Below are positions 35,915 to 57,420 of a stretch of 64,000 nt of DNA, piece by piece. Source of the stretch: a virus; the IMG/VR virus record IMGVR_UViG_3300005337_000001, positions 96,001-160,000 of that record. The stretch is one strand, 5' to 3'. The notes beneath the pieces were generated by a model. That model saw only the letters and a list, made by a program, of their open reading frames with translations. It had not been told where the DNA came from and did no database searches. Numbering within the stretch: the stretch's first letter is position 1; the number at the start of each line of letters is the position of its first letter. The position numbers and the translations under genes are program-made.

Positions 35915-36643
35915 ATGACGTTTCACTCCATGGGAAGGAACGAGGACCTGCTGACCTTCGCTGCCGTCGCCGAGCGGCTGGACGTAACACGTCGCCATCT
36001 AGGCCACATGATACGACAAGGCTTCATTCGCCCGGTGAAAGCGGCCCGCCACCTGCGCGAGCTACGCTTCAGGCCAGAGGACGTGAACGCGGTGCTGTCG
36101 CTGCGCCAGCACGGTACCGATCTCCCCAAGTTGGCCGTCATGGCCGCCCAGGCGCGCAGCCTCAGCCTGAGCAACGCGGCCAAGTTGGACAAGTTGTGCT
36201 CGTTCCTAGGGCTAGAAAATAACCGCCTGCGCATCGACGAGGACTCCGTCTTCATGCTGCACATGAAGACGCACGACACGATTGAGCTCCCGCTGTCCGA
36301 CCTGCGAGCGGGCGCCGTCATGGAGTGGGCATCAACCTTTAACGCCTTCGACGAGGGCTACCTGCAGATCATCGAAGAGTTCACGAACGACCCGCAGCCC
36401 TGGGTCGCGTACCTCGCCTTGGCCAACAAGATGATGGAGCAGCAGAACACGCGGTCCGAAACGAACCTGCGCTTTGCCTACGCCTGCCTCGACAGCTCAC
36501 GTCGACACCTGCGCCACGTCAGCTACTTCTACGTCATGAACAAGTCCGGTGAGCGGCTCGCCAACGACCTGTTCATCCGCGAAGCGGTCGACGATGAGAT
36601 CATCGCACAGCTTCACCCTACGCTAGACGAAACGACGCACTAG
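35915..36643 (+). CDS. MerR/excisionase-type helix-turn-helix DNA-binding protein
   Basis: LLTFAAVAERLDVTRRHLGHMIRQGFI...LRFRPEDV; alternative starts 35876 and 35930. Confidence 0.75.
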   Translation: MTFHSMGRNEDLLTFAAVAERLDVTRRHLGHMIRQGFIRPVKAARHLRELRFRPEDVNAVLSLRQHGTDLPKLAVMAAQARSLSLSNAAKLDKLCSFLGLENNRLRIDEDSVFMLHMKTHDTIELPLSDLRAGAVMEWASTFNAFDEGYLQIIEEFTNDPQPWVAYLALANKMMEQQNTRSETNLRFAYACLDSSRRHLRHVSYFYVMNKSGERLANDLFIREAVDDEIIAQLHPTLDETTH

Positions 36644-38448
36644 CCTTGGTACGTCGGGCCTGAGTAGCCAGACCAGATGGAGCCCTGGTGGTCAGCCTCT
36701 TTGTTCGGGGCGATGACGTCTGGGCGCGGCTTCGTGACCATCGAAGCGAGGAAGCAATAGAGCAGCGAGTGCAGCGTGTCGTCGGTCTTGCCTGCGGTGT
36801 GCCCATACTGAATCATGCGAATCTTTTCGTTGTACTCGCTGTAGATGTTGAGCATGTCCTGCCCGTACGGCTCTTGGAACTCCACCCAGCGCGGGAACTC
36901 GAACACGGTGCCGCGCTTGATCGCGTTGAAGATGGCGCTCATGATTTCCGTGCGATGAACCATCCAGCGCTGGAGCTTGGCTTCCCAGCGCACCTTGGCC
37001 GAGAGCCGGGCCACGTATTGGTACTTCATCACGCGCTCCTTGCCGAAACGTCGGACTAGAAAGTCGTTCGGGTAGTGACCGCCGCCGTAGTCGACGCCAA
37101 TAATGCGGACGTTGAACGCACGAAGAATGCGTTCGATCTTCTCGAGCTGGCGATCCGGCTCCGTGTCCTCGCCCGTGAAGCGGTGCACGTAGAAGACGCG
37201 AAACTTATTGCCGATGTACGTGGCCAGCGTGAGCACCGTGTAGCTGTGCTCGCCCGTGCCCCAGTCTATGCCAGCGTAGATCTCCTGGCCGAAGCCCAGC
37301 CGCTGGTACTTGTCGACCGCGGACATCTTCACTTTCTCGTTACAACACGCACGGACCTGCGCCATCGTGAGCGGGCGGAGACCAGTGTCGAACGAGACGC
37401 CGAGGACTTCGTTGTAGAACTTGTTGCGAGGGTAGTGCTCGTAGTTGTAGAGCAGCTCGTTCCAGTCGAGCCACGGCACCATGAGCTGCGGGATGCGGAA
37501 CGCTTCGAACGGCGTGTGCACCGGGTCCCACTCGATGGCAGAGGCCCACTGCGCATCGTCGCTCATTGGATTGAGCCGCTTGCCGCAGTGCTCGCAGATG
37601 AGGAACTTCTTGCCGATGTTCTTCTCGCCGAGAATGTTCCAGAAGCGGCCGCCCTCACCGCCCTTGCAATCGCAGGGCGCCATCCACTGGTTCTGCGTCG
37701 AGCGGTTCGCCCAGTAATCTTCGATGACGTTGTCGAGCGTCTTCGGCGTGCCGGAGTACAGGTAGCGCTTGAGCTCTTCCGGAGAGTGGGAAAGACACTG
37801 CTCGATGACGGGGATGTTGTCCGAGTAGATGTCCTGAATCTCGTCGATGCACAGGCTGTGCGCCGGGATGCCGCGCGCGCGGTCGGCGTTCAAGAAGGCG
37901 TAGCGCAGCGTGATCTTCGAACGATTGACGAACTGCTTCTCGAGAACGTTCTGCGAGAGCATGCTGTTCGTGTACGTGCGTAAGATCGGCGAGGTCTCGA
38001 TAGGCTCCTTGATGCGGTCGTTCGAGAACGTCTTCGTCTGCGTCATCGACGGCGAGACGTAGAGCGACTTGTACGCAGGGATGAGGCAGGAGAAGCTCAG
38101 CATGCGGTTGCCGAGCAACGTCGACTTCTCGACCTGACGTCCGCACATCAGGAGCACACGCTTCATCGGCGTGTCGTAGATTTGGTTGAGGTGCCGACGG
38201 CCGGCGAAGGAGAAGTTCTCCCAGCCCTGCGTCGTTGGCATCCGGAACGCAAACTGCGTGAACGCAGAAGGAAGTACTTCCGGGGCTGGCTCCGGCGCTG
38301 GGAAGCCAGGGGAATCGTCTGTGGTCAGGTCCAGGTACTCGAGCTGCTCCGGAACCCAAGCCTGGCCGCGCTCGATTAGCCGTAGCTCTTCATCAGAAAG
38401 CGGTGCACCATCTGGGTCATCCGAGTAGTAAACCTCAGCAGCTGCCAT
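36640..38448 (-). CDS. terL: terminase large subunit (lambda gpA-like)
   Basis: Start reset to ATG 38448; Walker A CGRQVEKST, Walker B LCIDEIQD, SGTP, Zn ribbon CDC..CEHC, nuclease GIDWG and DDTLHS. Confidence 0.92.
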   Translation of the reverse strand: MAAAEVYYSDDPDGAPLSDEELRLIERGQAWVPEQLEYLDLTTDDSPGFPAPEPAPEVLPSAFTQFAFRMPTTQGWENFSFAGRRHLNQIYDTPMKRVLLMCGRQVEKSTLLGNRMLSFSCLIPAYKSLYVSPSMTQTKTFSNDRIKEPIETSPILRTYTNSMLSQNVLEKQFVNRSKITLRYAFLNADRARGIPAHSLCIDEIQDIYSDNIPVIEQCLSHSPEELKRYLYSGTPKTLDNVIEDYWANRSTQNQWMAPCDCKGGEGGRFWNILGEKNIGKKFLICEHCGKRLNPMSDDAQWASAIEWDPVHTPFEAFRIPQLMVPWLDWNELLYNYEHYPRNKFYNEVLGVSFDTGLRPLTMAQVRACCNEKVKMSAVDKYQRLGFGQEIYAGIDWGTGEHSYTVLTLATYIGNKFRVFYVHRFTGEDTEPDRQLEKIERILRAFNVRIIGVDYGGGHYPNDFLVRRFGKERVMKYQYVARLSAKVRWEAKLQRWMVHRTEIMSAIFNAIKRGTVFEFPRWVEFQEPYGQDMLNIYSEYNEKIRMIQYGHTAGKTDDTLHSLLYCFLASMVTKPRPDVIAPNKEADHQGSIWSGYSGPTYQG

Positions 38449-38788
38449 GTACCCCCCTGAACCTACCAAGGATCCGTACCAGCTGCTCACCAACCTGTGG
38501 TCGTCGCTTCGGCGCGCCTGCGAAGACCACTGGGGAAGCGAGTGCACCATCGACCCGGCTGAAGGAGGCGGCTACAAGCTCACGCTCCGCTTCGCCGAAG
38601 CAATGACTGAGCGCGGCTGGGAGCTCGCGTCCAGGTACGTGCGCAGCTACTCGAAAGCCTCGCACTGGGCGGTCGACAAGCTCACTCGACGCCAGACGCA
38701 CATGGAATTGATCGTGGAGCACTCTCCGCCTAAGCCAAAAAAGAAATGGCGTCGAGAGCCTGATCCAGCTCCTCAAAAAACTTCATGA
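38447..38788 (+). CDS. hypothetical protein antisense within the late operon
   Basis: 113 aa with protein-like composition; ATG overlaps the terL ATG. Confidence 0.55.
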   Translation: MYPPEPTKDPYQLLTNLWSSLRRACEDHWGSECTIDPAEGGGYKLTLRFAEAMTERGWELASRYVRSYSKASHWAVDKLTRRQTHMELIVEHSPPKPKKKWRREPDPAPQKTS

Positions 38789-42394: not shown

Positions 42395-43039
42395 CTAGCT
42401 GGTCTTCAGGATAGCGCCGAGAGCAGCGAAAACGGCAGGGTCTTTCGTAACGATGAGAATACCGCTCACCAGCTCGGCCGGATTGATGGGAGCAGAGGGA
42501 CCTAGCCCACTTCCAAATTGAGCTGCAATCTGGGCACCAGTGACACCAAGAGAATCCCCAGTGAACGAGAGCAGATGAACCGGCCCGGCCGACAAAGCCG
42601 CCGCGGTCTTCGCTACGAATTGTAGTGCCGGGATTTTCACGGCCAGGCCTGCAGCAAGTAGCGCCTTGATGCCACCAATCTTGAGAGCGAGCGTCGCACT
42701 CAGCGAAGCGATGGCAGCAATCTGAGCTGTAGCTTGAAGCGAGATGTTCGGCAGAGGAAGTGCCAGCGCCACAGCCAGCGAGGCCTGCACCTGGATGAGT
42801 GCGGCCAGGAGCGCCTGCAGCGCAGCCAAGGGGTTGCTCACGCCGATGCCGATCTGCAACGCCGCCGAGATAGCGGCGTTGAACTGCACTTGGATGTCAG
42901 CCAAGAACGGACCGAGTCCGAACTGCCCGGTGAGGAACAAATCGAGCTGTAGCAGCAGCGGGTTCATGAGCCCGATGCCTACGGCGAGTCCGATGTTGAC
43001 TTCGCCTAAGGTGTAGCTGCCGAGATCAGTGAGGGCCAT
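42395..43039 (-). CDS. highly hydrophobic protein coupled to the spike gene
   Basis: 214 aa dominated by A/L/I/G/Q, very few charges; TAATG overlap. Confidence 0.75.
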   Translation of the reverse strand: MALTDLGSYTLGEVNIGLAVGIGLMNPLLLQLDLFLTGQFGLGPFLADIQVQFNAAISAALQIGIGVSNPLAALQALLAALIQVQASLAVALALPLPNISLQATAQIAAIASLSATLALKIGGIKALLAAGLAVKIPALQFVAKTAAALSAGPVHLLSFTGDSLGVTGAQIAAQFGSGLGPSAPINPAELVSGILIVTKDPAVFAALGAILKTS

Positions 43040-44307
43040 TAAACCAGAATGGTGGAGTTACCGTCGGTTATTACGCCGGTGCAAGTCAGGCCAACACCTG
43101 CGCCGATAAGTGGAGCAAAGCCCGCTGGGTTAGGAGCCACCGCCAAGAGCGTGGGGGGCAACGTCACCGTGACCAAGGAGCCAACGTGTGCCACGGGGTT
43201 GCTGCCGCCGTTGAGCTTCAGAACGGCCGCTGTGATCTCGAAGGTACCGCCTACGGTCATCTTCGCGTCGCTCTTCACGTTCATGTTGAACGTGTTGTCC
43301 GCGAAGATCTCCATCTCGTCCTTCACGCGCAGGCGCAGCTTCTTCTTACAGAGCACGCCGACGTTGCCGTCGAAGCGCGCGAAGGTGTTGCCGGCGCGAT
43401 CGAACACGAAGCGCATCTTCACCAGGTTGCCGGTGCCTGGTAGCAGGGAGCCGTCCTCTGCCTTGAAGGCGTTCTTGGCCAGGGTGAGCTCGTACACGAT
43501 GGGCTCGGTCTTGCCGAGCTCGACGCTCTGCTCGTCGACGATGGCGTCGCTGTCCGTCTCTGGTACGGGGTCGTGCACGCGGCCTACTGCGCAACGGATG
43601 TCGGCGTACTGGTCGTTGGCGTAGACGCGGAAGGTCTGCTTGAACTCCGTCGGGTTGGTGGTGTCGCCTTCGGATTCTTGGATGCCCCAGTTGATGGAGC
43701 CGCCAGCGTTGTGCAGCGCGTAGTTCTCCGCAAAATCCATGACGAGGTTGTTGAGCGGCACGTACACGCGCTGCGCGAGCTCGTTCGCCCCAATCTGCAG
43801 AACACCACCGCGGTGCAGCACGATGAAGTTCCCGTCACGCCCTCGGATGAACATGTCGCCGGGCTTGCCTCGTGGCCTACCGCCAGCGAAGCTGGCAGCC
43901 GTTGGCGCCTGATTGTCGCTGGCCCGTCCCTCCGTACCGGCCGGAGCTTCCGATGAATCACCAGCCAGCGGAATGGTCTCGTGCGGCATCACGAAGGCCA
44001 GAACGAACGGCGGCGAGCTGTCGCCCGGCCAGCACACGGCGCACTTCGAGCCCACCTCCGGCACCGCCGTCCAACCGTCACCACGGTTCGGGTGTGAGTA
44101 CGGCGAGCCCACCGGGATGTTGAGCAGACGCATCTGGTCGAACTGACTGAAGACATCGACTGTATAGTTCACAAGGTCGACGTTCACCACACGGCCCATG
44201 AAGACGTGGGTAGCTCCAAGACCTTCAGGCGCAGTGAAGCTCGAACGGTACTCAGTGCGCGGCTTGACCGCGCCTCGTGCCGCCTTCATACCTTGGTGAA
44301 GGGCCAT
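43039..44307 (-). CDS. baseplate central spike (gp5/gpV-like)
   Basis: OB-fold GRVVNVD...TAVPEVGSKCAV; beta-helix-like repeats; C-terminal LNGG..PVAHVG..TGVITDGNSTILV. Confidence 0.75.
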   Translation of the reverse strand: MALHQGMKAARGAVKPRTEYRSSFTAPEGLGATHVFMGRVVNVDLVNYTVDVFSQFDQMRLLNIPVGSPYSHPNRGDGWTAVPEVGSKCAVCWPGDSSPPFVLAFVMPHETIPLAGDSSEAPAGTEGRASDNQAPTAASFAGGRPRGKPGDMFIRGRDGNFIVLHRGGVLQIGANELAQRVYVPLNNLVMDFAENYALHNAGGSINWGIQESEGDTTNPTEFKQTFRVYANDQYADIRCAVGRVHDPVPETDSDAIVDEQSVELGKTEPIVYELTLAKNAFKAEDGSLLPGTGNLVKMRFVFDRAGNTFARFDGNVGVLCKKKLRLRVKDEMEIFADNTFNMNVKSDAKMTVGGTFEITAAVLKLNGGSNPVAHVGSLVTVTLPPTLLAVAPNPAGFAPLIGAGVGLTCTGVITDGNSTILV

Positions 44308-47300
44308 CAGTACTTGTGACCTGCCACGTCGTGTAGGTGCTGAAGAGACGGGCGACCTTTGATCGTGTCCTTGTTGAGACCGAACTCAGCGCCGTACGCC
44401 ATACCTGGCACAGGATGCAGGCCGTGGATGTTGGAGCGACCCATCGTGGAAGCGGCTTCGAGGATCGTCTGGCCAAGTCGCTGATGCTGCAGCTTCGCCA
44501 TCCAATCTTCTTGCAGCGACAATGGCATCATGTCGACACCCTTGAGCACCGGCTTGTGCTCGATGGGACGCAACCCCTTGCTCACGAGATCCCGGTTGAT
44601 AGCGTGAATCTTCGACGTGGGATGAAATTCCCCACGCAGCACGCCTTCATAGTCACCCGGTTCATCGATTTTGGTGAGGTTGCTCATCGCCTTCACCACA
44701 GTCTCTACGTGCTGGCGCTTGATGCCTTCATCTTTGTACAGGCCGTAGACTTCATCCGCCAGGTAATTCTGCACGGACTCGATGCTATTGGTCGCCTTGT
44801 ACAGGTCGTGCGGATTCACGAGCGTACGCAACGGGTCGCTCAAGAGCTGCCCGCGCTCCACTTTCATGCCCTGCTTGGGCGGCACCCAAGAGCTGAGCTC
44901 GCCCTTCTCTGTGCTCCAAAGCGGCGCGCCGCCCTCATCCTTGCCGACGTGGTGCTTCTTGCCACCGATGGTGATGGTCACGCCCGTCGGGTTCTTTTCA
45001 ACCTTCTCGATCACGCCCGAGCGCATGGCCAGGGTAGCGGAGTCCGGGATGGTCTTCGGCAGCGTCATGAGCTGGTTGAAGCGGTCGAAGCCGCCCAGCA
45101 CCTTGGAGCCGCCGCTGGTGTCCACGGTACCGCCGGTGTGGAAGACGCGCAGCGTGAGCTGCACCGCTCGCTCGCCAAGACTTTGAGCCGACGTGACACC
45201 CAGGTTCTCGCCGATTTGGTGGACGTGGCCATCCGCTGCCAAGCCGGCGCATTTCTGACAGATGCCCTTGGCGTGCTCGCACTTGAGCGGTGAGCGCACC
45301 AGTACCTGCGCGTTCTTGTCCGCTGCGCGCATCTTCGAGACGATGCTCGGCGTGAGCATCGTGCCTGCCGGCACGCTCATCCCCTTGGCACTGAAGTCCT
45401 TCTGCAGAATGCGGTCGTGGACGTCGCGGTCCGTAATGGGCATCGCGATGCCGCGGGTCGTACCGCAGTCGTCGCCGGTCACCACGAGATCCATCGTGTT
45501 GGCCATCAGCAACTTCGACAGGTAGCCAGGGTCGCGTACCTGCTGCACCTTGAGCACAGAGCCTCGGCGCGCGCCGTGCATCTGGGTCCAGTACTCGCCG
45601 GTGTCGAGGCCTTCTGCGTAGCTCTTGGTGATGGGCGTGGGGATGACGCGGCCGGCCGCGTCCTCGACAAGCATCGGCGCCAAGGTCATCTGCTTGTACT
45701 GACCCCAGCCTGGCTTCACGCCGGCGAGATGCATCGTCATCAGGTTGTTCGGGTCTTCGGTGTGCGTCTTGAGATGCTCGGTCTTCATCTGACGGTCGGC
45801 TTCCGACCAGATGCGTACAAGCTCACGGTCTTCCGAGGCGCCCGTGAGGTGCGGGTTCTTCTTCACCGCAGCAGCGTCGCGGCGAGCACCAGTCAGCACG
45901 CGCTCGCGCGTCTTGATGTCGGGCGTGAAATCGGAAAGCCCCAACGTGTGCACGCCGATGGGCACGTGAATATGCTGGCCAGGGTCGAGACGGTTGGCGC
46001 CGGCGAATTGGCTGTGCTCCACCGTGACCACACCACTCGCTGCGCCGTTGCCGATGTCCTTGAGCTTGTCGGCCACGCTGCCGTAGTCGCCGGTGTGATC
46101 GCTGGCTACCGTGGTGAGCAGCTTGTCGAGGCCCTTCTTATCGAGGTGGAAGTCCAAGTCCTCGAGCATCTTCTTCTGCATCGACTGCGGCAGCGCTGCG
46201 GCGATGAGGATGCGGCCGGTGGTCGTGACCTGCCCGTCGATGTTCACCTTGTCGTTGATATGAAGCTTCCCCTTCTGAACCGCCGTAATGGCGTCGGCGG
46301 GGTGCTTCATGGCAACAGCCTTCTTGTCGTTCGAGCGCGTGAGCTTGTAGAGCCCGAGCGCCGACTCAAGAGTCGGCTGGTACATCACCCGGCCCGACGC
46401 CTCGCTGAAGAGATTGTTCGAGGGGAACATCTTGCGAGCTTCATGAACCGCCTCATCCGAGATGGGCACGAACACGCTCATGGTATCGCCGTCGAAGTCG
46501 GCGTTGTAGCCGCCGGTGACGAGCGGGTGAATCTTGATGGCGCTGCCCTCGACCACCTTCGGCTTGAAGGCCTGCACGCTGTACTTGTGCAGCGACGGAT
46601 CGCGCTTGAGCATGACGGGGCGCTCTTCCATGACGCGCTGTAGCGCACGCTGAGCCTGCAGCCCGCCCTTCGCCACCATCTTTTGAGCCTCGGCCACGTT
46701 CTCCGCAACGCCGCTCTTCTTGAGCTGGTTCACGACGAACGGGGCGAAGAGCTTCATCGCGTGCTCTTTGGGCAAGCCCACCTCATCCAAGCTGAGTGAG
46801 GGCTCAGGCACGATGGTCGACCGCATACTCATGTCCTGCTTGCGGCTGATGAGCGTACTCTGAAAGTAGCCGGTCTTCGGCGTGGCGCCACTGATCTGAT
46901 GGAGCAATCCCTTGTGCGCTGCGTCCTTGTACGGAACGCCGACGCCCATGATGGCCTTCACGCCGTCGTACAAGTTCTTGCGCAGGTCCGACTTGTTCAG
47001 GTCGGTGAGGTTAGTCATCAGCGTCGGATCGCGCATCTGGTCGTTGTTCTGCGCGAACTGTGAGTAGAGCTGGTTGATGTCGGCAAAGTTGAAGTTGCCG
47101 TCTTGCATCACCGTCACGGGGCGCAGCGCCGGCGGCAGCACCGGGATGCTGTGCAGCACGTAGGCCTCGTCTGGCTTCATGTGACTCTCTTGCAAAGCCT
47201 GCAAGCGCTTCACCTTCTTCAACACCTTGTCGACCTTGGACGACGCCGTGGTCGAAAGCTCCTTGCGCGCCGCCGACAGCTCGCGGTCCACGTCGATGTG

Positions 47301-50300
47301 CGAGAGCAGCTGCTTCACCGCCGCACCGCCGGTCACACCCTTGCCAAGCTCCACGATCTTACCGTGCTTGTCGACGGCGTGCGTACCGTTCACTAGGCCG
47401 GTGTAGTCGTTGTCGGTGAGCCCCGTCAGCATGCGAATGCTGTCCTCGAACACAGGGTTCGGGATGGGCTCGGCCAGCTCGATGCGGCTCCACTTGCGAC
47501 CGCCATGGCCACCCGTGAGCTTCTCGTCGAAGAGCCCGCCAGGCTTGGGGCGCGGGTCGCCCGTCTTCGGATCGACCTTGGCGTAGAGGAGCTCGGCAGG
47601 CTTGGGCAGCACACGATCGCCGGTCAGGTCCTTGATGTGCTTGTCGGTGAGCGGGGAGAGGATGAACTCGTGCCCCTTCTTCTCCATGTTGATGCCCATG
47701 CCCTGCAGCATGTCGGTGAACTTCTTGAAGGCGAACGTCGGCTTCGGCGTCGGCAACGGATCGCCGTGCTGAATCGCGTCCCACACATCGTGGTGCTGGC
47801 TTTGCCACTGCTTCTGCGGGCTCACGCTCGGGTCCGGGCCCTCGCTCTTCCACGTCTGCATCTCGCGGATGTTGGCGCGCGCGCCGTGCGCCAGTAGGGC
47901 GTAAAGTCCCAAGGGGTCCATGGACTGACCACCGGCGTGGCCGCCGCCCGAGGGCTGCAAGTTGATGTCGTACTTCTCGACGTCGCCGCCAGGCAGGTTC
48001 AAGCCCGACCGCACCGACACCTTCTTGTCGACCTGGTGGTGCAGCTTGATCATGTGCTGGAAGCCGACCAAGGCGTCGCCGAGCTTCTGCTTGTTCGACG
48101 GGTCGTACAGCGACTCCACGTCACTAATGCCGTGCTTCTTCAACTCGGACTGCACGTTGGCGAGCTGGTTCTCACCGTCGAAGTTCTGCACGAGGTACGG
48201 CTTGCCGGTCTTCTTAGCAATCTTGCTGGCCGCCGTCTCTAACACCTGGCCGATGTTCATGCGGCCCGGAACGCCAGACGGATTGAGCGCCACCTCGATG
48301 TGCTTGCCATCCGGCGTGTGCGGCATCTCGTGGTCCGGCACGATCTTGGTGACGATGCCTTTGTTGCCGTAACGGCCAGCGAGTTTGTCGCCCACCTGCA
48401 TCGGCTCGATGGCTTTCACGTGCACAACGACTTCACCATCGCGCTTGAACGCACCTACCACCTCGCCTGCGCCCTCGCCCTCCCACGTGAGAGAACGGTC
48501 GGCGTACTGCTCACCCAAGCTCTTGCGAATAGCCGACAGTCCCACACGATCTTGGACGTTCGACTTCTTCATCGACAGCACAAGAGGGTCACCAGGCACG
48601 ACGCGGGTGCCTTTCTTGATGAGCCCATCATCGCCGATGTTCTCCAGCTGGTTCCGCAAGTACAAGCCAGGGTGCTGCGCCAGGTAGCGCTTCTTGGCCA
48701 GGATGGTCTCGTCGTCGACCGGGAGATTGTGCTTGTAGAGATGAACGCTCGACAGCTTGTCGGCGGCGCTCTGGCTGATGACGATGCCGTCTTCGAAGTT
48801 GTAGCCCTTATAGGGGATGTAACCGACACGCAGGTTGGTGCCGAGAGCGATAGCACCGTTCTTCGAAAAGTTCGTGTCGGCAATGGTCTGACCGGACTTC
48901 ACCTTGTCGCCGACACTGACGAGCGCCGTAGAGTCGAGCACGGACTTGGCATCGTTGAGTGGGTAGTTCCTGTAGATCTGCACCTCGTGGTTCCTGCCGT
49001 CCTTGCCGGCAATCACGATGGCGTCGTTCTTCACCGCATGGACCACACCGTCCACTGGTGATTGGTGCGAGGCCTGCGTGCCGATAATTTCCTCAAACGT
49101 CTGACGCCCTTCTCTGCCGACACCGGTGCCGACCTGCACCAGCGGCGCCTCACGGTGCACGAGCGAGATGGCCTGCTCCATGTGCCGGGTGGCCATGGAG
49201 GCGCGCCCGCCGGAGGTGTTGTTGATGAACGGGATGAGGTTCGACGTGATATTGAAGAACTGCGAGGGGTGCCTCATCACGTAGTCGGCGTCCTTGATGT
49301 GGCCCTCGCCGATGTCGTTGCCGGCGTTCGACCACTTCACCACGCCACTCTTCGCCGTGGGCTTGTCCTTCTCCCAGGTGACCTGGTCGGGAAGTACAAC
49401 CTTCGACTGCAAGAACTTGGTCGGCCCCACGTACTCCATCTTGTTCGTGTGCAGGTTGAAGAGCGGCACCTGCGGCTCATTGCCGTGCTTGCGCACGCCG
49501 AGCGGCATGCGTAACGTCACGCCCGTCTTCGAACCCTCAGGCGTGTGGATAGGGTCGAGGAACGCCATGTGCGACGGGTTGACGAACTTCACCTCATCGA
49601 GAATCTGCTGCTCGCTCTGAATGCCGCCAGGGCCCATCACCGTCGTCTGTTGCGCGGTCGACACCATCTCGACAGGGTTCACCTGCTTGGCTACCTGCGC
49701 CGCGCTGTTCTTGTGGAACGTCTCGCGGATGGGCTTGTCGAACACCTCGAAGCGCAGCGCGTCGCGCGGGTTTTCAGCCGTGTTGATCTTGCGCTGCATC
49801 TTGGCGCGGATGGACGAGCTCGCCGCCATGATCTTGTCGTGCGCGAAGTCACCCACGCTGCGCAGGTCCTTGAAGACCAGTGAGTCGCGGTCGTCAGGCT
49901 CGGCGCCATTCTGCACCGCCAGCATCTTCTTCGTGGCGCGCGTGAGCGCGTCGCCGTTCACGTGATCGAACGCCTTGCCAAGCGTGATCTGCGTAGCCTC
50001 CGGGCGCATGTCCGTGTTCTTGAACACCTGCACCATATGCTTGGCAGCGTCCGCTTCATTGGGTGGCGGCATACGCTTCGTCGTGCGGTAGAACTGGTCA
50101 ACCGTGCTGCCAGCCTTGCGAGCTACCTGGTTGGCTTTGAGGATGTCCTTGCCCCAAGTCTTCTCGAGCTCGCTATCGGAAACGCCGAGCGTCTGCAGGA
50201 TCGGGTAGAGCGGCAACTTGGCCTTGCCGTACTCGACACGGAACTCCTTAGACTCATCGTCGAACGTGACGTCGAACGACGGCGCTTGCGAGCTCTGGAA

Positions 50301-50696
50301 GCGCGTCTCCAGCTGACCAGTCTTGCGGCGGCGCACGTACGCACCAGGCTTGAGCTGCCATTGGTTGTCGACCTGGTATTCCTGGCCGCCAACAATCTGG
50401 CTGTGGCGCCGCGTGATCTTCGGGAGCTCGGCGATGCGCGTCTTCGCACGCACTTCCCTGCCCGTCAGCTTATCGCGAAGCACCAGATGAGCCACGACCG
50501 GCACGCCCCACGTCTCACCGCTCACCTTGGCTTGGTGCTGACCTCGCAAGTCGTCTGGGCTCTTGTCGTCATGAACTTCCAGCTTCTCGAGCTCGAGCAT
50601 CTGCGTGCGCCCGTCGATCGGAAACTGCTTCTTGATGCCCTCCAGCGTCCGGTCGCGGAAGTTGTCGAAGGCTTCGTTGGGGTCCAGGTACGCCAT
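44307..50696 (-). CDS. single-chain beta-beta' DNA-directed RNA polymerase
   Basis: beta motifs GPGG, TPEG, YNFEDG, GDKLAGRYGNKG, GGQSMDPL; beta' motifs PVLPPALRP, RDPSLH, NADFDGD (46485-46505), HGARRG, AQSLGE, QLTLRVFHTGG. Confidence 0.97.
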   Translation of the reverse strand: MAYLDPNEAFDNFRDRTLEGIKKQFPIDGRTQMLELEKLEVHDDKSPDDLRGQHQAKVSGETWGVPVVAHLVLRDKLTGREVRAKTRIAELPKITRRHSQIVGGQEYQVDNQWQLKPGAYVRRRKTGQLETRFQSSQAPSFDVTFDDESKEFRVEYGKAKLPLYPILQTLGVSDSELEKTWGKDILKANQVARKAGSTVDQFYRTTKRMPPPNEADAAKHMVQVFKNTDMRPEATQITLGKAFDHVNGDALTRATKKMLAVQNGAEPDDRDSLVFKDLRSVGDFAHDKIMAASSSIRAKMQRKINTAENPRDALRFEVFDKPIRETFHKNSAAQVAKQVNPVEMVSTAQQTTVMGPGGIQSEQQILDEVKFVNPSHMAFLDPIHTPEGSKTGVTLRMPLGVRKHGNEPQVPLFNLHTNKMEYVGPTKFLQSKVVLPDQVTWEKDKPTAKSGVVKWSNAGNDIGEGHIKDADYVMRHPSQFFNITSNLIPFINNTSGGRASMATRHMEQAISLVHREAPLVQVGTGVGREGRQTFEEIIGTQASHQSPVDGVVHAVKNDAIVIAGKDGRNHEVQIYRNYPLNDAKSVLDSTALVSVGDKVKSGQTIADTNFSKNGAIALGTNLRVGYIPYKGYNFEDGIVISQSAADKLSSVHLYKHNLPVDDETILAKKRYLAQHPGLYLRNQLENIGDDGLIKKGTRVVPGDPLVLSMKKSNVQDRVGLSAIRKSLGEQYADRSLTWEGEGAGEVVGAFKRDGEVVVHVKAIEPMQVGDKLAGRYGNKGIVTKIVPDHEMPHTPDGKHIEVALNPSGVPGRMNIGQVLETAASKIAKKTGKPYLVQNFDGENQLANVQSELKKHGISDVESLYDPSNKQKLGDALVGFQHMIKLHHQVDKKVSVRSGLNLPGGDVEKYDINLQPSGGGHAGGQSMDPLGLYALLAHGARANIREMQTWKSEGPDPSVSPQKQWQSQHHDVWDAIQHGDPLPTPKPTFAFKKFTDMLQGMGINMEKKGHEFILSPLTDKHIKDLTGDRVLPKPAELLYAKVDPKTGDPRPKPGGLFDEKLTGGHGGRKWSRIELAEPIPNPVFEDSIRMLTGLTDNDYTGLVNGTHAVDKHGKIVELGKGVTGGAAVKQLLSHIDVDRELSAARKELSTTASSKVDKVLKKVKRLQALQESHMKPDEAYVLHSIPVLPPALRPVTVMQDGNFNFADINQLYSQFAQNNDQMRDPTLMTNLTDLNKSDLRKNLYDGVKAIMGVGVPYKDAAHKGLLHQISGATPKTGYFQSTLISRKQDMSMRSTIVPEPSLSLDEVGLPKEHAMKLFAPFVVNQLKKSGVAENVAEAQKMVAKGGLQAQRALQRVMEERPVMLKRDPSLHKYSVQAFKPKVVEGSAIKIHPLVTGGYNADFDGDTMSVFVPISDEAVHEARKMFPSNNLFSEASGRVMYQPTLESALGLYKLTRSNDKKAVAMKHPADAITAVQKGKLHINDKVNIDGQVTTTGRILIAAALPQSMQKKMLEDLDFHLDKKGLDKLLTTVASDHTGDYGSVADKLKDIGNGAASGVVTVEHSQFAGANRLDPGQHIHVPIGVHTLGLSDFTPDIKTRERVLTGARRDAAAVKKNPHLTGASEDRELVRIWSEADRQMKTEHLKTHTEDPNNLMTMHLAGVKPGWGQYKQMTLAPMLVEDAAGRVIPTPITKSYAEGLDTGEYWTQMHGARRGSVLKVQQVRDPGYLSKLLMANTMDLVVTGDDCGTTRGIAMPITDRDVHDRILQKDFSAKGMSVPAGTMLTPSIVSKMRAADKNAQVLVRSPLKCEHAKGICQKCAGLAADGHVHQIGENLGVTSAQSLGERAVQLTLRVFHTGGTVDTSGGSKVLGGFDRFNQLMTLPKTIPDSATLAMRSGVIEKVEKNPTGVTITIGGKKHHVGKDEGGAPLWSTEKGELSSWVPPKQGMKVERGQLLSDPLRTLVNPHDLYKATNSIESVQNYLADEVYGLYKDEGIKRQHVETVVKAMSNLTKIDEPGDYEGVLRGEFHPTSKIHAINRDLVSKGLRPIEHKPVLKGVDMMPLSLQEDWMAKLQHQRLGQTILEAASTMGRSNIHGLHPVPGMAYGAEFGLNKDTIKGRPSLQHLHDVAGHKY

Positions 50697-50797: not shown

Positions 50798-50947
50798 ATG
50801 AGTGCTACCGACCCTAGGGCGAAGGACAAGCAGGAAAACAAACGCCCGGCGAGCACAGGCAAAGTCTATGAGCAGTTGGTCGAAGACCTGTTCATGGGCG
50901 ACTCGACCGAGGAGGACGAGGAAGAAGAAACCAACGATACGGAATAA
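50798..50947 (+). CDS. 49-aa acidic peptide (not in ORF track)
   Basis: SD GGGAG; MSATDPRAKDKQENKRP...DSTEEDEEEETNDTE. Confidence 0.6.
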   Translation: MSATDPRAKDKQENKRPASTGKVYEQLVEDLFMGDSTEEDEEEETNDTE

Positions 50948-52285: not shown

Positions 52286-53587
52286 ATGGCAAGTAAGAAG
52301 ACCACCGCTGCAGCAACCAGTACCGCCGTCGACCCGAACGATTCCGACGCAGCAAAAACCGTCGCTCAGTCCCTGACCGCAAACGAAGTCAACGAAGTCG
52401 TAGAGGTATGCCTGGCCACGCCCATGGAAGGCTACCCGTCGAAGAAGAACGATGACTGCCTGTGGGGTCTGCCGCTGTGCGTCGAAGGCGAACCTGGTAT
52501 CGCCAAGACGGCTCGCATGAAACAGCTGGGCCGCGTGCTGTCGATCAAGGTGAGGTCTCTTTTCGCGGCGCAGCACCCACCGGAGGACTTCTCCGGCGCG
52601 CTCATCCCCGACGGTAAGGGCGACGCCACTCAAATCTGCCCGCTCTCGCAAGTGCGGGAGCTCATCAAAGAGAAGCGAGGCCTCATCCACCTCGACGAGC
52701 TCAACGGAGCGCCGCCTGCCACACAGGGTGCGCTGCAGAGCTTCATCCACGAACGCGTCGCCGGCGACCAGCCTATCCCGGGAAAGATCCGCATCGTCGC
52801 GTCGCAGAACCCAGCAGAGATTGCGACGGGCGGCTTCGCACTGTCAGCGCCGCTCGCCAACCGCTTCGTGCATCTAGTCGATCCAGGACCAACCGCACGC
52901 GACTGGATCTCCTGGCTCATGGGCAACACCACATCGCGGCTCAACGCCTCGATGGAACAAATCGAAGACCAAATATGCGACGACTGGCCGCAGCTCTTTC
53001 CGGAGAGCCAGGCGCTGTTCGCTGGTTTCATGGAGGCCAACGGTGAGGAGCTGCTCCACAAACGACCTGACAGCGGCGACCCAGCGGCGAGCAAAGCGTG
53101 GCCGTCGCACCGCACGTGGGACTATGCCATCCGAGCTTGGACTACAGCACGCATCCTCGAGAAGAACGACAGTATCCGCGACGCCATCATCGAATGTTGC
53201 GTAGGGCCAGGCGCCGCTGCAGTCTTCCTCGAGTACATGAACGAGCACGACATCCCCAAGCCCATGGAGGTGCTCAAAGGCACGTGGAAGCCAGACCAGA
53301 ACCGCATCGACATCGTGATGGCAGCCTACGTCGGCGCCATCGCGTACGTGAGGCAGCGTCCGACGATGAAAGACAAGATGGAGCTTGGCGTCCTGGCTTG
53401 GGGGAGCATGAAGCAGCTCTTCCCACTCGGACTCGCCGACATCGCAGTGCCAGCCTCAGAAGGCCTGGTGCTAGAGAAGCTGGGGCGCGCGTCGGGTGAC
53501 CCAGACCTGAAGAAAGCTGCCAGCGAAATCCTGACCCTGCTGGCCAGGAGCGGTGTGCAGTCATACGTCGAGGAGCGCGACACGTGA
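52286..53587 (+). CDS. MoxR-like AAA+ ATPase
   Basis: Walker A GEPGIAKT, Walker B IHLDELN, ASQNP, APLANRFVH, PSHRTW. Confidence 0.9.
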   Translation: MASKKTTAAATSTAVDPNDSDAAKTVAQSLTANEVNEVVEVCLATPMEGYPSKKNDDCLWGLPLCVEGEPGIAKTARMKQLGRVLSIKVRSLFAAQHPPEDFSGALIPDGKGDATQICPLSQVRELIKEKRGLIHLDELNGAPPATQGALQSFIHERVAGDQPIPGKIRIVASQNPAEIATGGFALSAPLANRFVHLVDPGPTARDWISWLMGNTTSRLNASMEQIEDQICDDWPQLFPESQALFAGFMEANGEELLHKRPDSGDPAASKAWPSHRTWDYAIRAWTTARILEKNDSIRDAIIECCVGPGAAAVFLEYMNEHDIPKPMEVLKGTWKPDQNRIDIVMAAYVGAIAYVRQRPTMKDKMELGVLAWGSMKQLFPLGLADIAVPASEGLVLEKLGRASGDPDLKKAASEILTLLARSGVQSYVEERDT

Positions 53588-55338: not shown

Positions 55339-57420
55339 TCAAACAGCGCCGGCTGCGCGGCGCGGCGGCAGCTTGTCGGGCATCGGCTTCATGTTGATGC
55401 TGACAGCCGCGTTGCCGTTGGCGCCCAAGCCAGAGTCGCCGCCCGCTGCTGGTTGCTGCTGCGGCTGACCAGGCGGGGCCATCCCTCCACCCGGGGCCAT
55501 CGACTGCAAGAACTGCAACACGAGGTCGGCGAACTCTGGCGACTGCGCGCGCAGCTGCTTGATCTCGAGGAGCTGACTTGCCGGATCCTTCTGCGACAGC
55601 TGCAGCGCTGTTGCCTGAGCCACGGCGGTCAGACTCGAGCCGCCCAGCGAAGGTTGCCCGCCGGCGGCTGGGCTGGTGCCCATGCCCATGTTCTGGCCAG
55701 CGTTGAGCGGGCTGGACATGGCCGCCATAGGACCTGCTGCCGCGCCGGCCTGCGCCGGCATTCCCTCGCTGCCAGCCTGCCCGCCGGGCGGCGCTGCGCC
55801 GGTCTCGGGGCCACCGGGCTCGCCAGGAGCGACCGGAGCGTTGGCTGCAGTCGCCATCTCCTGCTGCGCCTTGGCCTGCATCTTCATCATGATGACCTGC
55901 TGCTCGCCCTGCATCTCAGCCATCGCCAGCTGCTGCTTCTTGGTGGCCTGCAAGCGATTCGAGGTCTCGCGCTCCATGATCTGGTTCTCCTTCTCTTGGT
56001 CGAGATCGGAGTCAGCCAGCAGCGTCGTGTCGGAGACTTTGTTGGCCTGGTTCAGCTGGAACATGAAGGCCTTGCGCTGAATATCGTCGGCCATTTTGAA
56101 CGGCTTGAAGCGAATGTTCGCCAGCGGCCAGTCCAGGTAATCGGCGACGTGCTTCATCGTCCACTTCGCCATGCGCACGTGACGAGACAGGTACGTGATG
56201 AACTGATTCTCGAGCATGCGCATCGACACGTTCGTGCCGGCGTAGCTCATGCCGCCCTTGATGAATTCGAGCGGCACCTGCATGCCGTTGATGAGCTGCT
56301 CGCTCATCGTCTGCATTTCCTGCACCATCAATAGAGCGCGGCCGTCGCCGCCAATGGTCTGGTTGCCGATGGGCAGTGGCAAGATCGGGATGTAGTTCGG
56401 GTCCATACGCCAGCGCGCGATCTCGGCGGCGACGTGGTCACGCCAGTCGACCAGGTTGATGGTCGTGTACGGATCGCTGGTACCCGAGCCGGCCTGCGGG
56501 AAGAGCACGCGCAAGGGCACAATGTGCTCGAGCAGGATGGCCTCCTGCGCCTTCTTCATGATCTGCAGGTAGAACGTGTCCTTCAAGCAGGCCAGGAGCA
56601 GCGGGATGCCCCAACCCCGGTCTTGATCGGCGAGCGTCGGGCGGCGCAGGTGGAAGAACAAGTCCTTCGAGAACGTCACACCCTTCTGCTGACGCAGCGC
56701 CTGGATGAAGATGTCCGGCACCTGCTCGATGGCGTCCTTCTTACCGACGATGATGTCGTTACGCACGCCCGGCGGTATGTTGTAGAAGTACGTGTGCTCG
56801 CCCGAGAGATCCGAGTACGTGACCTCGACGTCCTCCGGGCTCCAGCGCATCATGCGGATGCCACTCTCGTTCTTGAAGTACAAGTCCTTCGATCGCGCCG
56901 TGCCGAGGTTGCCGCAGTGTGGGCAGCTGAGTCTGAACTCGTAGTTCGTGAACACCCAGTGCGGCCGGATGCGCGAAGCCTCCATCTGCTTCTTGCAGCC
57001 AGCGCAAGTGAGGAACTTCTTGAACGGGAAGCTCAGGCTCGTGAGACAGTTGCCGTACGTGTTGTAGTCGAGGCCGCACTCGATTTGAAACGCCTTGTAG
57101 TTCAGGTGATCTATGAAGTACTCCTTCCACCGGTCAGCGACACGGCGGTCGGGGTGGTCGATCATAATCTCGGTGATAGGGTATTCACTGAGCTTGAAGA
57201 CCGTGGCGTTGATGATGGGATTCGTGAGGAAGTAGTAGCGGCACCACCTGAACATCGACTTGATCGTCGTCGGCAGGTACGTGTGTGCGATGTCGAAGAA
57301 CGGCGAGGGGTAGTTCACCCCCTGCGCGGCACCATTGCCCATGCGCGCGCGCGTCTGCGCGAAGCGCAATCCGCCGCCAGGACCGCCGCCAATGCCCAAC
57401 GCGCCGGGGATGCCGCTCAT
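55339..57420 (-). CDS. portal protein with Zn-ribbon insertion
   Basis: YFLTNPIINATVFKLSEYP, DYNTYGN, RGWGIPLL, QLINGMQVPLEF; CAGC...CPHC; Pro/Gly/Ala-rich C-tail. Confidence 0.85.
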   Translation of the reverse strand: MSGIPGALGIGGGPGGGLRFAQTRARMGNGAAQGVNYPSPFFDIAHTYLPTTIKSMFRWCRYYFLTNPIINATVFKLSEYPITEIMIDHPDRRVADRWKEYFIDHLNYKAFQIECGLDYNTYGNCLTSLSFPFKKFLTCAGCKKQMEASRIRPHWVFTNYEFRLSCPHCGNLGTARSKDLYFKNESGIRMMRWSPEDVEVTYSDLSGEHTYFYNIPPGVRNDIIVGKKDAIEQVPDIFIQALRQQKGVTFSKDLFFHLRRPTLADQDRGWGIPLLLACLKDTFYLQIMKKAQEAILLEHIVPLRVLFPQAGSGTSDPYTTINLVDWRDHVAAEIARWRMDPNYIPILPLPIGNQTIGGDGRALLMVQEMQTMSEQLINGMQVPLEFIKGGMSYAGTNVSMRMLENQFITYLSRHVRMAKWTMKHVADYLDWPLANIRFKPFKMADDIQRKAFMFQLNQANKVSDTTLLADSDLDQEKENQIMERETSNRLQATKKQQLAMAEMQGEQQVIMMKMQAKAQQEMATAANAPVAPGEPGGPETGAAPPGGQAGSEGMPAQAGAAAGPMAAMSSPLNAGQNMGMGTSPAAGGQPSLGGSSLTAVAQATALQLSQKDPASQLLEIKQLRAQSPEFADLVLQFLQSMAPGGGMAPPGQPQQQPAAGGDSGLGANGNAAVSINMKPMPDKLPPRRAAGAV

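What the first reader, a model, noticed from the sequence alone, without database searches (positions are those of the whole stretch)
44307..50696. Streamlined single-chain beta-beta' RNA polymerase in a phage
Seen: every catalytic motif of a cellular-type two-barrel RNAP in one 2129-aa ORF (E. coli beta plus beta' is about 2750 aa); the beta C-terminus (GINME) runs straight into beta' region A (ILSPLT). No alpha, omega or sigma gene is recognisable in the window. Known: rpoBC fusions occur in Helicobacter and Wolbachia; phiKZ/AR9 enzymes are split over several genes; deep-branching RNAP-encoding Caudovirales have been reported, so the lineage may already be known. Inferred: a minimal, possibly alpha-independent enzyme.
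Basis: partly seen in the sequence, partly recalled or inferred. Interest (0 to 1): 0.85.

Follow-up and report, generated by a model that had tools for sequence, protein, structure and literature searches.

The report
Single-chain bacterial-type phage RNA polymerase
A complete 196-kb uncultured phage encodes both large subunits of a bacterial-type RNA polymerase as one 2129-residue protein. It has its own sigma factors but no alpha or omega subunit, and a very large, barely described family of environmental phages shares this design.

Summary
Window 44307-50696 (-) is one 2129-aa ORF with a full bacterial beta module (1-1009) joined by a four-residue turn to a full beta' module (1010-2129). 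All catalytic motifs are present.

It lies in a complete 195.6-kb phage genome, between the portal and terminase genes. Its stop codon overlaps the start of a baseplate-spike-like gene.

It is not a host capture. Identity to bacterial beta' is at most 34%, and scores fall far below every NCBIfam rpoB/rpoC/rpoBC cut-off. In a small tree the family forms its own clade.

At least 150 clusters at 50% identity share the fusion. Salmonella phage Arash and Vibrio phage D69 share the same junction.

"Streamlined" is only partly right. About 470 of the roughly 620 residues missing relative to E. coli are E. coli lineage-specific insertions. The real losses are the beta' zinc-binding domain and the two ends at the junction.

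No alpha or omega gene was found in six complete genomes, but two sigma genes lie outside the window. One of them is conserved with the polymerase across the family. The sigma-docking arginines of the clamp helices are replaced.

Independence from alpha remains untested. This scan had already found the same design in other genomes.

The parts
44307..50696 (-). Single ORF of 2129 aa: fused beta-beta' RNA polymerase (P0001)
47670..50696 (-). Beta module, residues 1-1009. Relative to E. coli beta it lacks residues 1-27, 220-354 (SI1), 933-1048 (SI2) and 1125-1178.
   Evidence: Alignment. AF2 model with mean pLDDT 79.7. Foldseek matches bacterial beta of many phyla at TM about 0.7.
47646..47702 (-). 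Covalent junction, residues 999-1017 (GMGINMEKKGHEFILSPLT). The last beta strand and the first beta' strand are joined by a KKGH turn.
   Evidence: The AF2 model has strands at 1002-1007 and 1010-1015. The motif is conserved from 39 to 92% identity.
44310..47669 (-). Beta' module, residues 1010-2129. Relative to E. coli beta' it lacks residues 1-19, 68-99 (zinc-binding domain) and 943-1127 (SI3).
   Evidence: AF2 model with mean pLDDT 77.6. Foldseek matches bacterial beta'.
47496..47501 (-). Site of the 32-residue deletion that removes the beta' N-terminal zinc-binding domain (E. coli C70, C72, C85, C88); lies between residues 1066 and 1067
   Evidence: Arash gp206 and D69 0261 carry the same deletion.
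48357..48377 (-). Beta double-psi barrel motif GRYGNKG (774-780), which carries the active-site lysines
48513..48542 (-). Beta flap-tip segment (719-728, GLSAIRKSLG), the expected sigma region 4 docking helix
46947..47078 (-). Beta' clamp helices (about 1207-1250). The coiled coil is kept, but the bacterial sigma-contact residues are replaced (E. coli R271, R275, R278, R281 and E295 become Q, N, Q, D and L).
46485..46505 (-). Catalytic Mg-binding motif NADFDGD (1398-1404)
45498..45575 (-). Bridge helix (1708-1733)
45249..45467 (-). Second zinc site: C1744, C1806, C1813 and C1816, invariant in the family
45054..45176 (-). Trigger loop (1841-1881) without the SI3 insertion
43039..44307 (-). Downstream 422-aa gene resembling a gp5 / baseplate hub spike. 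Its start overlaps the polymerase stop codon (TGATG).
   Evidence: Found next to the polymerase gene in 37 of 37 loci.
55339..57420 (-). Portal protein, homologue of Arash gp204, upstream on the same strand
36640..38550 (-). Large terminase subunit, at the downstream end of the same gene block

Best explanation
The ORF encodes the catalytic core of the phage's own bacterial-type RNA polymerase, made as a single chain. A complete beta module runs through a four-residue turn into a complete beta' module. This tether stands where the beta C-terminus and the beta' N-terminus meet in bacterial enzymes. (Shown: the sequence and predicted fold.) I infer that the core pairs with the phage's own sigma-70-family factor, the 253-aa protein at genome C1:70058-70819 that is inherited together with the polymerase. 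It would dock on the retained flap tip and on clamp helices whose host-sigma contacts have been rewritten, and the resulting holoenzyme would transcribe phage genes from phage promoters. A second, FliA-like sigma may switch the temporal class. No alpha or omega gene exists in the phage, so the covalent link probably replaces at least part of the alpha dimer's assembly role (inferred, untested). The gene sits in the head and baseplate gene block. The two-piece homologue in phage Arash gave the highest spectral count in the particle preparation, together with sigma. The enzyme is therefore probably packaged and delivered with the DNA for early transcription (inferred from a distant relative). 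The changed rifampicin pocket predicts transcription that is insensitive to rifampicin.
For: - ORF, motifs and domain order.
- Predicted folds equal bacterial beta and beta' (TM about 0.7).
- Phage context: a complete 195.6-kb genome with direct terminal repeats, and portal, terminase and spike-like neighbours.
- Only one polymerase gene detected in the genome.
- The fusion and junction motif are conserved in all 50 aligned intein-free full-length relatives (39-92% identity) and in at least 150 clusters at 50% identity.
- The 253-aa sigma is present in 5 of 5 diverse relatives and in Arash and D69.
- Sigma domains.
- Alpha and omega are absent in 6 of 6 complete or near-complete genomes.
- Clamp-helix arginines are replaced while the helices are kept.
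- The flap tip is conserved.
- Arash Gp206, Gp216 and sigma Gp10 were found in particles: PMC10585845.
- Rif-pocket changes (E. coli D516 to K, H526 to T, R529 to Q, S531 to T, R687 to E).
Against: - No biochemical data exist for any member of the fused family.
- The Arash mass spectrometry searched only a phage protein database and detected 116 of 272 proteins. Host alpha could not have been seen, and carry-over of abundant non-structural proteins is possible.
- Helicobacter keeps alpha despite a natural beta-beta' fusion (general knowledge), so a tether alone does not prove alpha independence.
- The beta and beta' regions that bind alpha in bacteria are retained in sequence, so host alpha could still bind.
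- No phage promoter consensus was found by a simple 7-mer enrichment or by a sigma-70 consensus scan.
- Arash and D69 are only about 33% identical and did not resolve as sister to the family in the beta' tree.
Confidence: 0.7

Rival explanations
1. The fused chain is the catalytic core but still needs the host's alpha dimer (and perhaps omega) to assemble and work. The phage would then supply only beta-beta' and sigma and borrow the rest.
For: The modules are colinear with bacterial beta and beta' through the conserved C-terminal parts of beta and the middle of beta', which by general knowledge bind alpha in E. coli. Natural bacterial fusions keep alpha (general knowledge). The Arash proteomics could not have detected host proteins.
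Against: No alpha gene was found in six genomes of a lineage that otherwise carries its own sigma. If the enzyme is packaged and acts on entry, it would also have to carry host alpha. The phiKZ and AR9 enzymes, which are also beta/beta' homologues, work without alpha (PMC7598289 and PMC7824862).
Confidence: 0.3
2. The polymerase is not a particle component. It is simply co-expressed late and serves only as an intracellular (middle or late) polymerase, while host polymerase transcribes the early genes.
For: The gene lies in a late-looking structural block. The Arash particle preparation also contained ribonucleotide reductases and ligases, which suggests contamination. A FliA-like second sigma could redirect either polymerase.
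Against: Arash Gp206 has the highest spectral count of all proteins, above the major capsid protein. There is only one polymerase gene, so an enzyme made late would have to be carried over to act early. The position between portal and spike genes is conserved in 37 of 37 loci.
Confidence: 0.3
3. The chain is a polyprotein that is cut at or near the junction, for example by the head-maturation protease, to give separate beta-like and beta'-like subunits.
For: The virion polymerase subunits of phiKZ are processed by the prohead protease (general knowledge). The gene sits among head genes.
Against: The junction is a tight, highly conserved beta-hairpin with no linker, which is a poor protease substrate. 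In Arash the beta to beta' N-half fusion (Gp206, 1525 aa) is reported with 100% peptide coverage. That does not prove the chain is intact, but it gives no sign of a lost segment.
Confidence: 0.08
4. It is a recently captured bacterial rpoBC gene (host capture) or bacterial contamination of the contig.
For: A 60%-identical copy lies on a contig binned into a Myxococcales MAG.
Against: That MAG has its own separate rpoC, only 38% identical over the best-conserved part. In 142 of 151 genomes of that phylum the native rpoC was matched at 31-46% identity over aligned segments (32-34% for the long matches), none above 324 bits. Scores are about half or less of the NCBIfam rpoB and rpoC cut-offs and about a tenth of the Helicobacter and Wolbachia rpoBC cut-offs. 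Solved beta' chains from many different bacteria all score alike, 332-372 bits. The family forms its own clade apart from the sampled bacteria. The genome is a complete phage.
Confidence: 0.02

Closest known systems
RNA polymerase of Salmonella phage Arash (Gp206 + Gp216, sigma Gp10; OQ632216, PMC10585845) and of Vibrio phages D69, D148 and D181
   Same: They have the same beta to beta' junction and the same deletion of the beta' zinc-binding domain. A homologous sigma factor is present, and a homologous portal gene lies nearby. Genomes are 181-187 kb. The polymerase and sigma were detected in Arash particles.
   Different: Identity is only about 33%. In these phages beta' is split again at about residue 1487, giving a 1525-aa beta + beta' N-half protein and a 609-aa beta' C-half protein. 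The Arash record labels Gp206 simply 'subunit beta', and the fusion is not mentioned in the paper. In the beta' tree they are a separate long branch.
mReC lineage (multi-subunit RNAP-encoding Caudovirales; Weinheimer and Aylward 2020, PMC7481178)
   Same: These are uncultured tailed phages with beta and beta' recognisably similar to cellular enzymes that branch apart from Bacteria. Their subunits are also compact (beta about 1000 aa, beta' about 900 aa in many contigs).
   Different: The contigs listed in the part of the supplement I read have beta and beta' as separate genes and about 40% GC. The paper mentions fusion only for crAssphage. Its capsid and terminase families (PF07068, PF03237) differ from the terminase match here (PF05876). 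Sigma, alpha and the zinc-domain loss are not discussed.
Natural rpoBC fusions of Helicobacter and Wolbachia (NCBIfam PRK09603, PRK14844)
   Same: Beta precedes beta' in one polypeptide. The join exploits the proximity of the beta C-terminus and the beta' N-terminus.
   Different: Those are full-size cellular enzymes (2839-2890 positions) that keep alpha, omega and the zinc-binding domain (general knowledge). The phage protein scores 535 and 499 bits against cut-offs of 5372 and 4632, so the fusion is independent.
phiKZ / AR9 virion and non-virion multisubunit polymerases
   Same: They are phage-encoded homologues of beta and beta' that work without alpha and omega. One set is packaged in the particle (PMC7598289, PMC7824862).
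   Different: Those enzymes are split into four or five polypeptides, are far more divergent, come in two sets per genome and have no sigma factor. Here there is one chain, one set and sigma-70-family factors.
crAss-like gp62, YonO and P23-45 tape-measure-fused single-chain two-barrel polymerases
   Same: Both double-psi barrels lie in one polypeptide. Some of these enzymes are delivered by the particle.
   Different: Those enzymes share little beyond the barrels with cellular beta and beta' (PMC7481178; PMC10770324). This protein keeps essentially the whole bacterial architecture.

Membership tests
Bacterial-type multisubunit RNA polymerase core (beta + beta') | Beta double-psi barrel with the GRxGNKG lysines, and beta' barrel with NADFDGD | tested here: met
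   GRYGNKG at 774-780 and NADFDGD at 1398-1404; Pfam Rpb2_6 and Rpb1_2
Bacterial-type multisubunit RNA polymerase core (beta + beta') | Bridge helix, trigger loop, second zinc site, flap and clamp helices in bacterial order, with closer similarity to bacterial than to archaeal subunits | tested here: met
   TIGR02386 rpoC scores 496 bits against 112 bits for archaeal A'. Foldseek top hits are all bacterial.
Bacterial-type multisubunit RNA polymerase core (beta + beta') | Beta' N-terminal zinc-binding domain (four Cys) | tested here: not met
   A 32-residue deletion removes all four cysteines. It is shared by the family and by Arash and D69.
Bacterial-type multisubunit RNA polymerase core (beta + beta') | Alpha dimer and omega as partner subunits | tested here: inconclusive
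   No alpha or omega gene was found in this genome or in five relatives. Use of host alpha cannot be tested with these tools.
Bacterial-type multisubunit RNA polymerase core (beta + beta') | Score above NCBIfam rpoB / rpoC equivalog cut-offs | tested here: not met
   rpoC 496 against 963.5; rpoB 314 against 801
Helicobacter / Wolbachia rpoBC fusion | Equivalog-level similarity (PRK09603, PRK14844) | tested here: not met
   535 against 5372 and 499 against 4632 bits
Helicobacter / Wolbachia rpoBC fusion | Beta followed by beta' in one reading frame | tested here: met
Arash / D69-type phage polymerase | Shared junction (..G[IV]N..K.G....P[LM]TD..) and shared loss of the zinc-binding domain | tested here: met
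Arash / D69-type phage polymerase | Beta' split into two genes at about residue 1487 | tested here: not met
   The frame is continuous here and in nearly all 70 IMG/VR relatives.
Arash / D69-type phage polymerase | Co-inherited sigma-70-family factor | tested here: met
mReC lineage (PMC7481178) | Phage-encoded beta and beta' that cluster apart from cellular homologues | tested here: inconclusive
   The family is separate from the bacteria sampled (Firmicutes, Gammaproteobacteria, one further phylum), but the backbone is unresolved, the sample is small and no mReC sequence was in the tree.
mReC lineage (PMC7481178) | Separate beta and beta' genes; T4-type capsid (PF07068) and PF03237 terminase | tested here: not met
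   The gene is fused here. The terminase matches PF05876 / phrog_675. The listed mReC contigs have two genes.
phiKZ / AR9-type phage multisubunit polymerase | Beta and beta' each split into two or more polypeptides; no sigma factor; two sets per genome | tested here: not met
   One chain, one copy detected and two sigma genes. Review description in PMC7824862.

The most novel reading that the evidence does not exclude
This family is a natural two-polypeptide bacterial-type holoenzyme. A single-chain beta-beta' core needs neither alpha nor omega nor the zinc-binding domain. It pairs with a co-evolved phage sigma, and the pair is carried in the particle and injected, so that the phage runs a sigma-dependent transcription programme fully independent of the host polymerase.
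Probability: 0.3. Interest if true: 0.85.

Novelty: new variant of a known kind. Interest (0 to 1): 0.65.

Why it matters
Every bacterial-type polymerase studied so far is built on an alpha dimer. The known alpha-less phage enzymes (phiKZ, AR9) are fragmented, very divergent and have no sigma. A 2021 survey found that jumbo phages carry either a polymerase or sigma factors, never both (PMC7824862).

This family combines three things: a nearly complete bacterial architecture in one chain, its own sigma-70-family factor, and no alpha, omega or zinc-binding domain. It is abundant in metagenomes and has cultured relatives (Arash, Vibrio D69).

The family makes several questions directly testable:
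- whether a covalent tether can replace the alpha scaffold;
- what the zinc-binding domain is needed for;
- how a sigma-core interface can be rewritten.

It also offers a compact, probably rifampicin-insensitive, sigma-programmable polymerase as a tool. If host alpha turns out to be required, it is still a new and widespread arrangement of a known enzyme, but much less surprising.

Tried and rejected
- **Mixture-model tree:** the LG+C20 PMSF tree of the beta' module did not finish in two 300-s runs. I used LG+G4 'quick' instead. One row (L092) was a bad frame and sits on a very long branch.
- I examined the apparently split relatives through the search for related loci instead.
- **Apparent stand-alone beta' proteins:** P0319 (1026 aa) and P0288 (994 aa) looked like split forms. 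Their loci hold single frames of 2010-2108 aa, or a frame with TGA read as Trp, so they are gene-calling artefacts. P0271-P0273 (1110-1129 aa, short contigs) could not be checked.
- **Promoters:** the sigma-70 consensus scan around the gene found nothing. A 7-mer enrichment over 90 upstream regions gave no motif.
- **Other large ORFs:** Pfam on ten other large ORFs of the genome found no second polymerase. The T7-type family search found nothing, but its control also failed, so it is uninformative.
- **Alpha-binding surfaces:** I could not test them. No coordinates or multimer prediction were available.
- **745-aa neighbour:** it remains unidentified.
- **Host:** the only hint is two relatives on contigs binned into Myxococcota MAGs. 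This is weak, because binning follows composition.
Full report
**Observation.** Window 44307-50696 (minus strand) is one uninterrupted ORF of 2129 codons.
- Pfam finds Rpb2 domains 3 and 6 at residues 334-897 and Rpb1 domains 1, 2 and 5 at residues 1135-2013.
- Solved bacterial beta' chains match residues 1120-2093 with E about 1e-110.
- I aligned the protein to E. coli rpoB and rpoC, taken from NC_000913. This gave GRYGNKG at 774-780, NPSGVPGRMN at 805-814, KLHHQVDKK at 884-892, NADFDGD at 1398-1404, the bridge helix at 1708-1733, the second zinc site at C1744/C1806/C1813/C1816 and the trigger loop at 1841-1881.
E. coli beta ends ..SLGINIELEDE and beta' begins [27 protein letters not shown]. 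The phage reads GMGINMEKKGHEFILSPLT at 999-1017.
- The AlphaFold model of residues 1-1130 makes a beta-hairpin of the two flanking strands (1002-1007 and 1010-1015), with pLDDT of 72-83.

**It is a phage gene.** The window is C1:96001-160000 of a 195,580-bp IMG/VR virus record with direct terminal repeats, rated 100% complete.
- On the same strand lie a portal gene (55339-57420), homologous to Arash gp204 at E 3e-80, and the large terminase (36640-38550).
- Directly downstream is a 422-aa protein that resembles gp5 / baseplate-hub spikes. Its ATG overlaps the polymerase stop codon (TGATG).
- The core of this order (polymerase, the 422-aa spike-like gene, the 745-aa gene and the terminase) recurs in 37 of 37 related loci with enough flank; the intervening 319-aa gene is in 33 and the 214-aa gene in 14.
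- Only one polymerase gene was detected in the genome.

**How streamlined is it?**

| Subunit | Missing relative to E. coli |
|---|---|
| beta | 1-27; 220-354 (SI1); 933-1048 (SI2); 1125-1178 |
| beta' | 1-19; 68-99; 943-1127 (SI3); a few stretches of 12-17 residues |

- About 470 of the roughly 620 missing residues are insertions specific to the E. coli lineage.
- Against S. aureus beta and beta' the protein is about 260 residues shorter. These residues come mainly from the beta N-terminus, the beta lobe, the junction and the beta' N-terminal region.
- The one conserved functional element that is clearly gone is the beta' zinc-binding domain. A 32-residue deletion removes all four cysteines.
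- Both modules fold like bacterial beta and beta', with mean pLDDT of 79.7 and 77.6. Foldseek TM scores are about 0.7 to enzymes of cyanobacteria, mycobacteria, Thermus, Firmicutes and proteobacteria alike, at 21-26% identity.

**It is not a host capture.**
- Identity to E. coli is 30.5% for beta' and 26% for beta.
- Solved beta' chains from many bacteria score within 332-372 bits of each other.
- A 60% relative lies on a contig binned into a Myxococcales MAG. That MAG has its own rpoC.
- In 142 of 151 genomes of that phylum the native rpoC was matched. The long matches are 32-34% identical, shorter segments reach 46%, and none exceeds 324 bits.
- NCBIfam scores are about half or less of the rpoB and rpoC cut-offs and about a tenth of the Helicobacter and Wolbachia rpoBC cut-offs.
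- In a beta' tree (LG+G4, quick search) the fused family is one clade (SH-aLRT 96) and the sampled bacteria are another (100). Arash plus D69 form a separate long branch, and the backbone is unresolved.
- The bacterial sample is small, so the tree excludes nesting only in those groups.

**The family.**
- A search of 5.8 billion proteins listed 120 best clusters. All carry both Rpb1 and Rpb2 domains. Lengths are 2119-2163 aa, or up to 2984 aa with intein or LAGLIDADG domains. They sit on contigs of up to 200 kb.
- A full HMMER scan with the beta' module returned 150 representatives at 50% clustering, all with E of 1e-162 or better. In most of the full-length ones the beta' part starts near residue 1000 of a protein of 2000 aa or more.
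- Seventy IMG/VR loci at 35-88% identity were fetched. Nearly all hold one continuous frame.
- The junction motif is conserved throughout.
- Two apparent stand-alone beta' proteins were artefacts. One group has single frames of 2101-2108 aa. The other reads TGA as tryptophan and has a single 2019-aa ORF under code 4.

**Closest cultured relatives.** These are Vibrio phages D69, D148 and D181 and Salmonella phage Arash, at about 33% identity.
- They share the junction and the zinc-domain deletion.
- Their beta' is split again at about residue 1487.

**Partners.**
- No alpha N-terminal domain, RNA_pol_L, alpha C-terminal domain or omega was found at E up to 1 in this genome.
- The alpha N-terminal domain and omega families gave no significant match in five relatives either. 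The only matches were two chance-level ones near E 0.02, far below the family cut-offs. The controls rang in 14 of 14 reference genomes.
- Two sigma genes lie outside the window.
  - C1:70058-70819 (-) encodes 253 aa with Sigma70_r3, phrog_351 and a weak SigB/F/G match.
  - C1:9314-9871 (+) encodes 185 aa with regions 2 and 4. It is FliA/WhiG-like and above the sigma70-ECF superfamily cut-off.
- The 253-aa sigma is present in 5 of 5 diverse relatives at 32-67% identity. It also matches the annotated sigma of Arash and a D69 gene.
- The docking elements for sigma are retained. The flap tip (719-728) is conserved in the family, and the clamp helices are modelled as a coiled coil.
- The clamp-helix residues that are nearly identical in E. 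coli, Acinetobacter and S. aureus are replaced. E. coli R271, R275, R278, R281 and E295 become Q, N, Q, D and L.
- This fits a core that binds its own sigma rather than the host's (inference).

**Likely role.**
- In Arash, Gp206 gave the highest spectral count in the particle preparation. Gp216 and sigma Gp10 were also found (PMC10585845).
- That search used only phage proteins, and 116 of 272 proteins were detected. Host alpha could not have been seen, and contamination is possible.
- Together with the conserved position among head and baseplate genes, this makes packaging and early transcription on entry plausible but unproven.
- Rifampicin-pocket positions are changed: E. coli D516 to K, H526 to T, R529 to Q, S531 to T and R687 to E. 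This predicts insensitivity (inference from established resistance positions).

**Comparison with the literature.**
- The mReC paper describes deep-branching phage beta and beta'. The contigs I read in its supplement have two separate genes and about 40% GC. Fusion is mentioned only for crAssphage.
- A comparative survey of jumbo phages states that polymerase-encoding phages have no sigma and sigma-encoding ones have no polymerase (PMC7824862).
- The Arash paper does not note that Gp206 is a fusion.
- Full-text searches found no paper that describes this fused, sigma-associated family. The library is incomplete.
- Earlier reports of this scan reached the same reading on other genomes of the family. 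I checked the sigma link and the clamp-helix changes myself.

**Verdict.** The enzyme is a new, widespread variant of a known kind: a phage-encoded bacterial-type polymerase. Independence from alpha and delivery in the particle are the open, testable claims.

Noticed in passing
L047, L051, L059, L060, L067, L076 (relatives); equivalent to query residues about 384-394, 773-785 and 1404/1405: Relatives carry inserts of 340-520 aa (frames of 2517-3008 aa). Other family members of this size have LAGLIDADG or intein Pfam domains, which I did not check on these loci. The inserts sit exactly at core motifs: next to HTPEG, inside GRYGNKG, and directly after NADFDGD. One family protein reaches 4739 aa.
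   Followed up: partly
L093-L097 (IMG/VR contigs up to 205 kb, GC 35%): In a distant branch of the family the polymerase frame holds four or five in-frame TGA codons and no TAA or TAG. One TGA aligns with the invariant W972. Under code 4 the gene is a single 2019-aa ORF. These phages therefore seem to read TGA as Trp, and database 'beta'-only' proteins from them are gene-calling artefacts.
   Followed up: partly
window 52286-54963 (+): A MoxR-like AAA ATPase (AAA_3/AAA_5) is followed by a DUF2201 metallopeptidase / VWA protein on the opposite strand, between the portal and the polymerase genes. The pair is present in 25 of 37 related loci.
   Followed up: no
genome C1:9314-9871 (+), outside the window: A second, 185-aa FliA/WhiG-like sigma factor (regions 2 and 4) that has no homologue in Arash or D69. 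It may be a temporal-class switch.
   Followed up: partly
L001 (Salmonella phage Arash, OQ632216, gp206): [quoted passage not shown] The D69 homologues are annotated as hypothetical proteins.
   Followed up: yes
L007 (CALFEQ010000137.1, 91.8 kb) and L008: Relatives of this phage sit on contigs binned into Myxococcales / Myxococcota MAGs. These are either mis-binned phage contigs or a weak host hint. The window's 62% GC would fit such a host.
   Followed up: partly
window 50843-50861 (-): A terminator-like hairpin followed by a T-rich tail lies between the upstream 130-aa ORF and the polymerase start, in a 195-bp gap. The polymerase gene may therefore start its own transcription unit.
   Followed up: no
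window 40149-42386 (-) and genome-wide: The 745-aa protein conserved in 37 of 37 loci downstream of the polymerase has no match in Pfam, PHROGs or the protein atlas. Of ten further ORFs of 570-1332 aa, eight have no Pfam match and two have only weak ones.
   Followed up: partly
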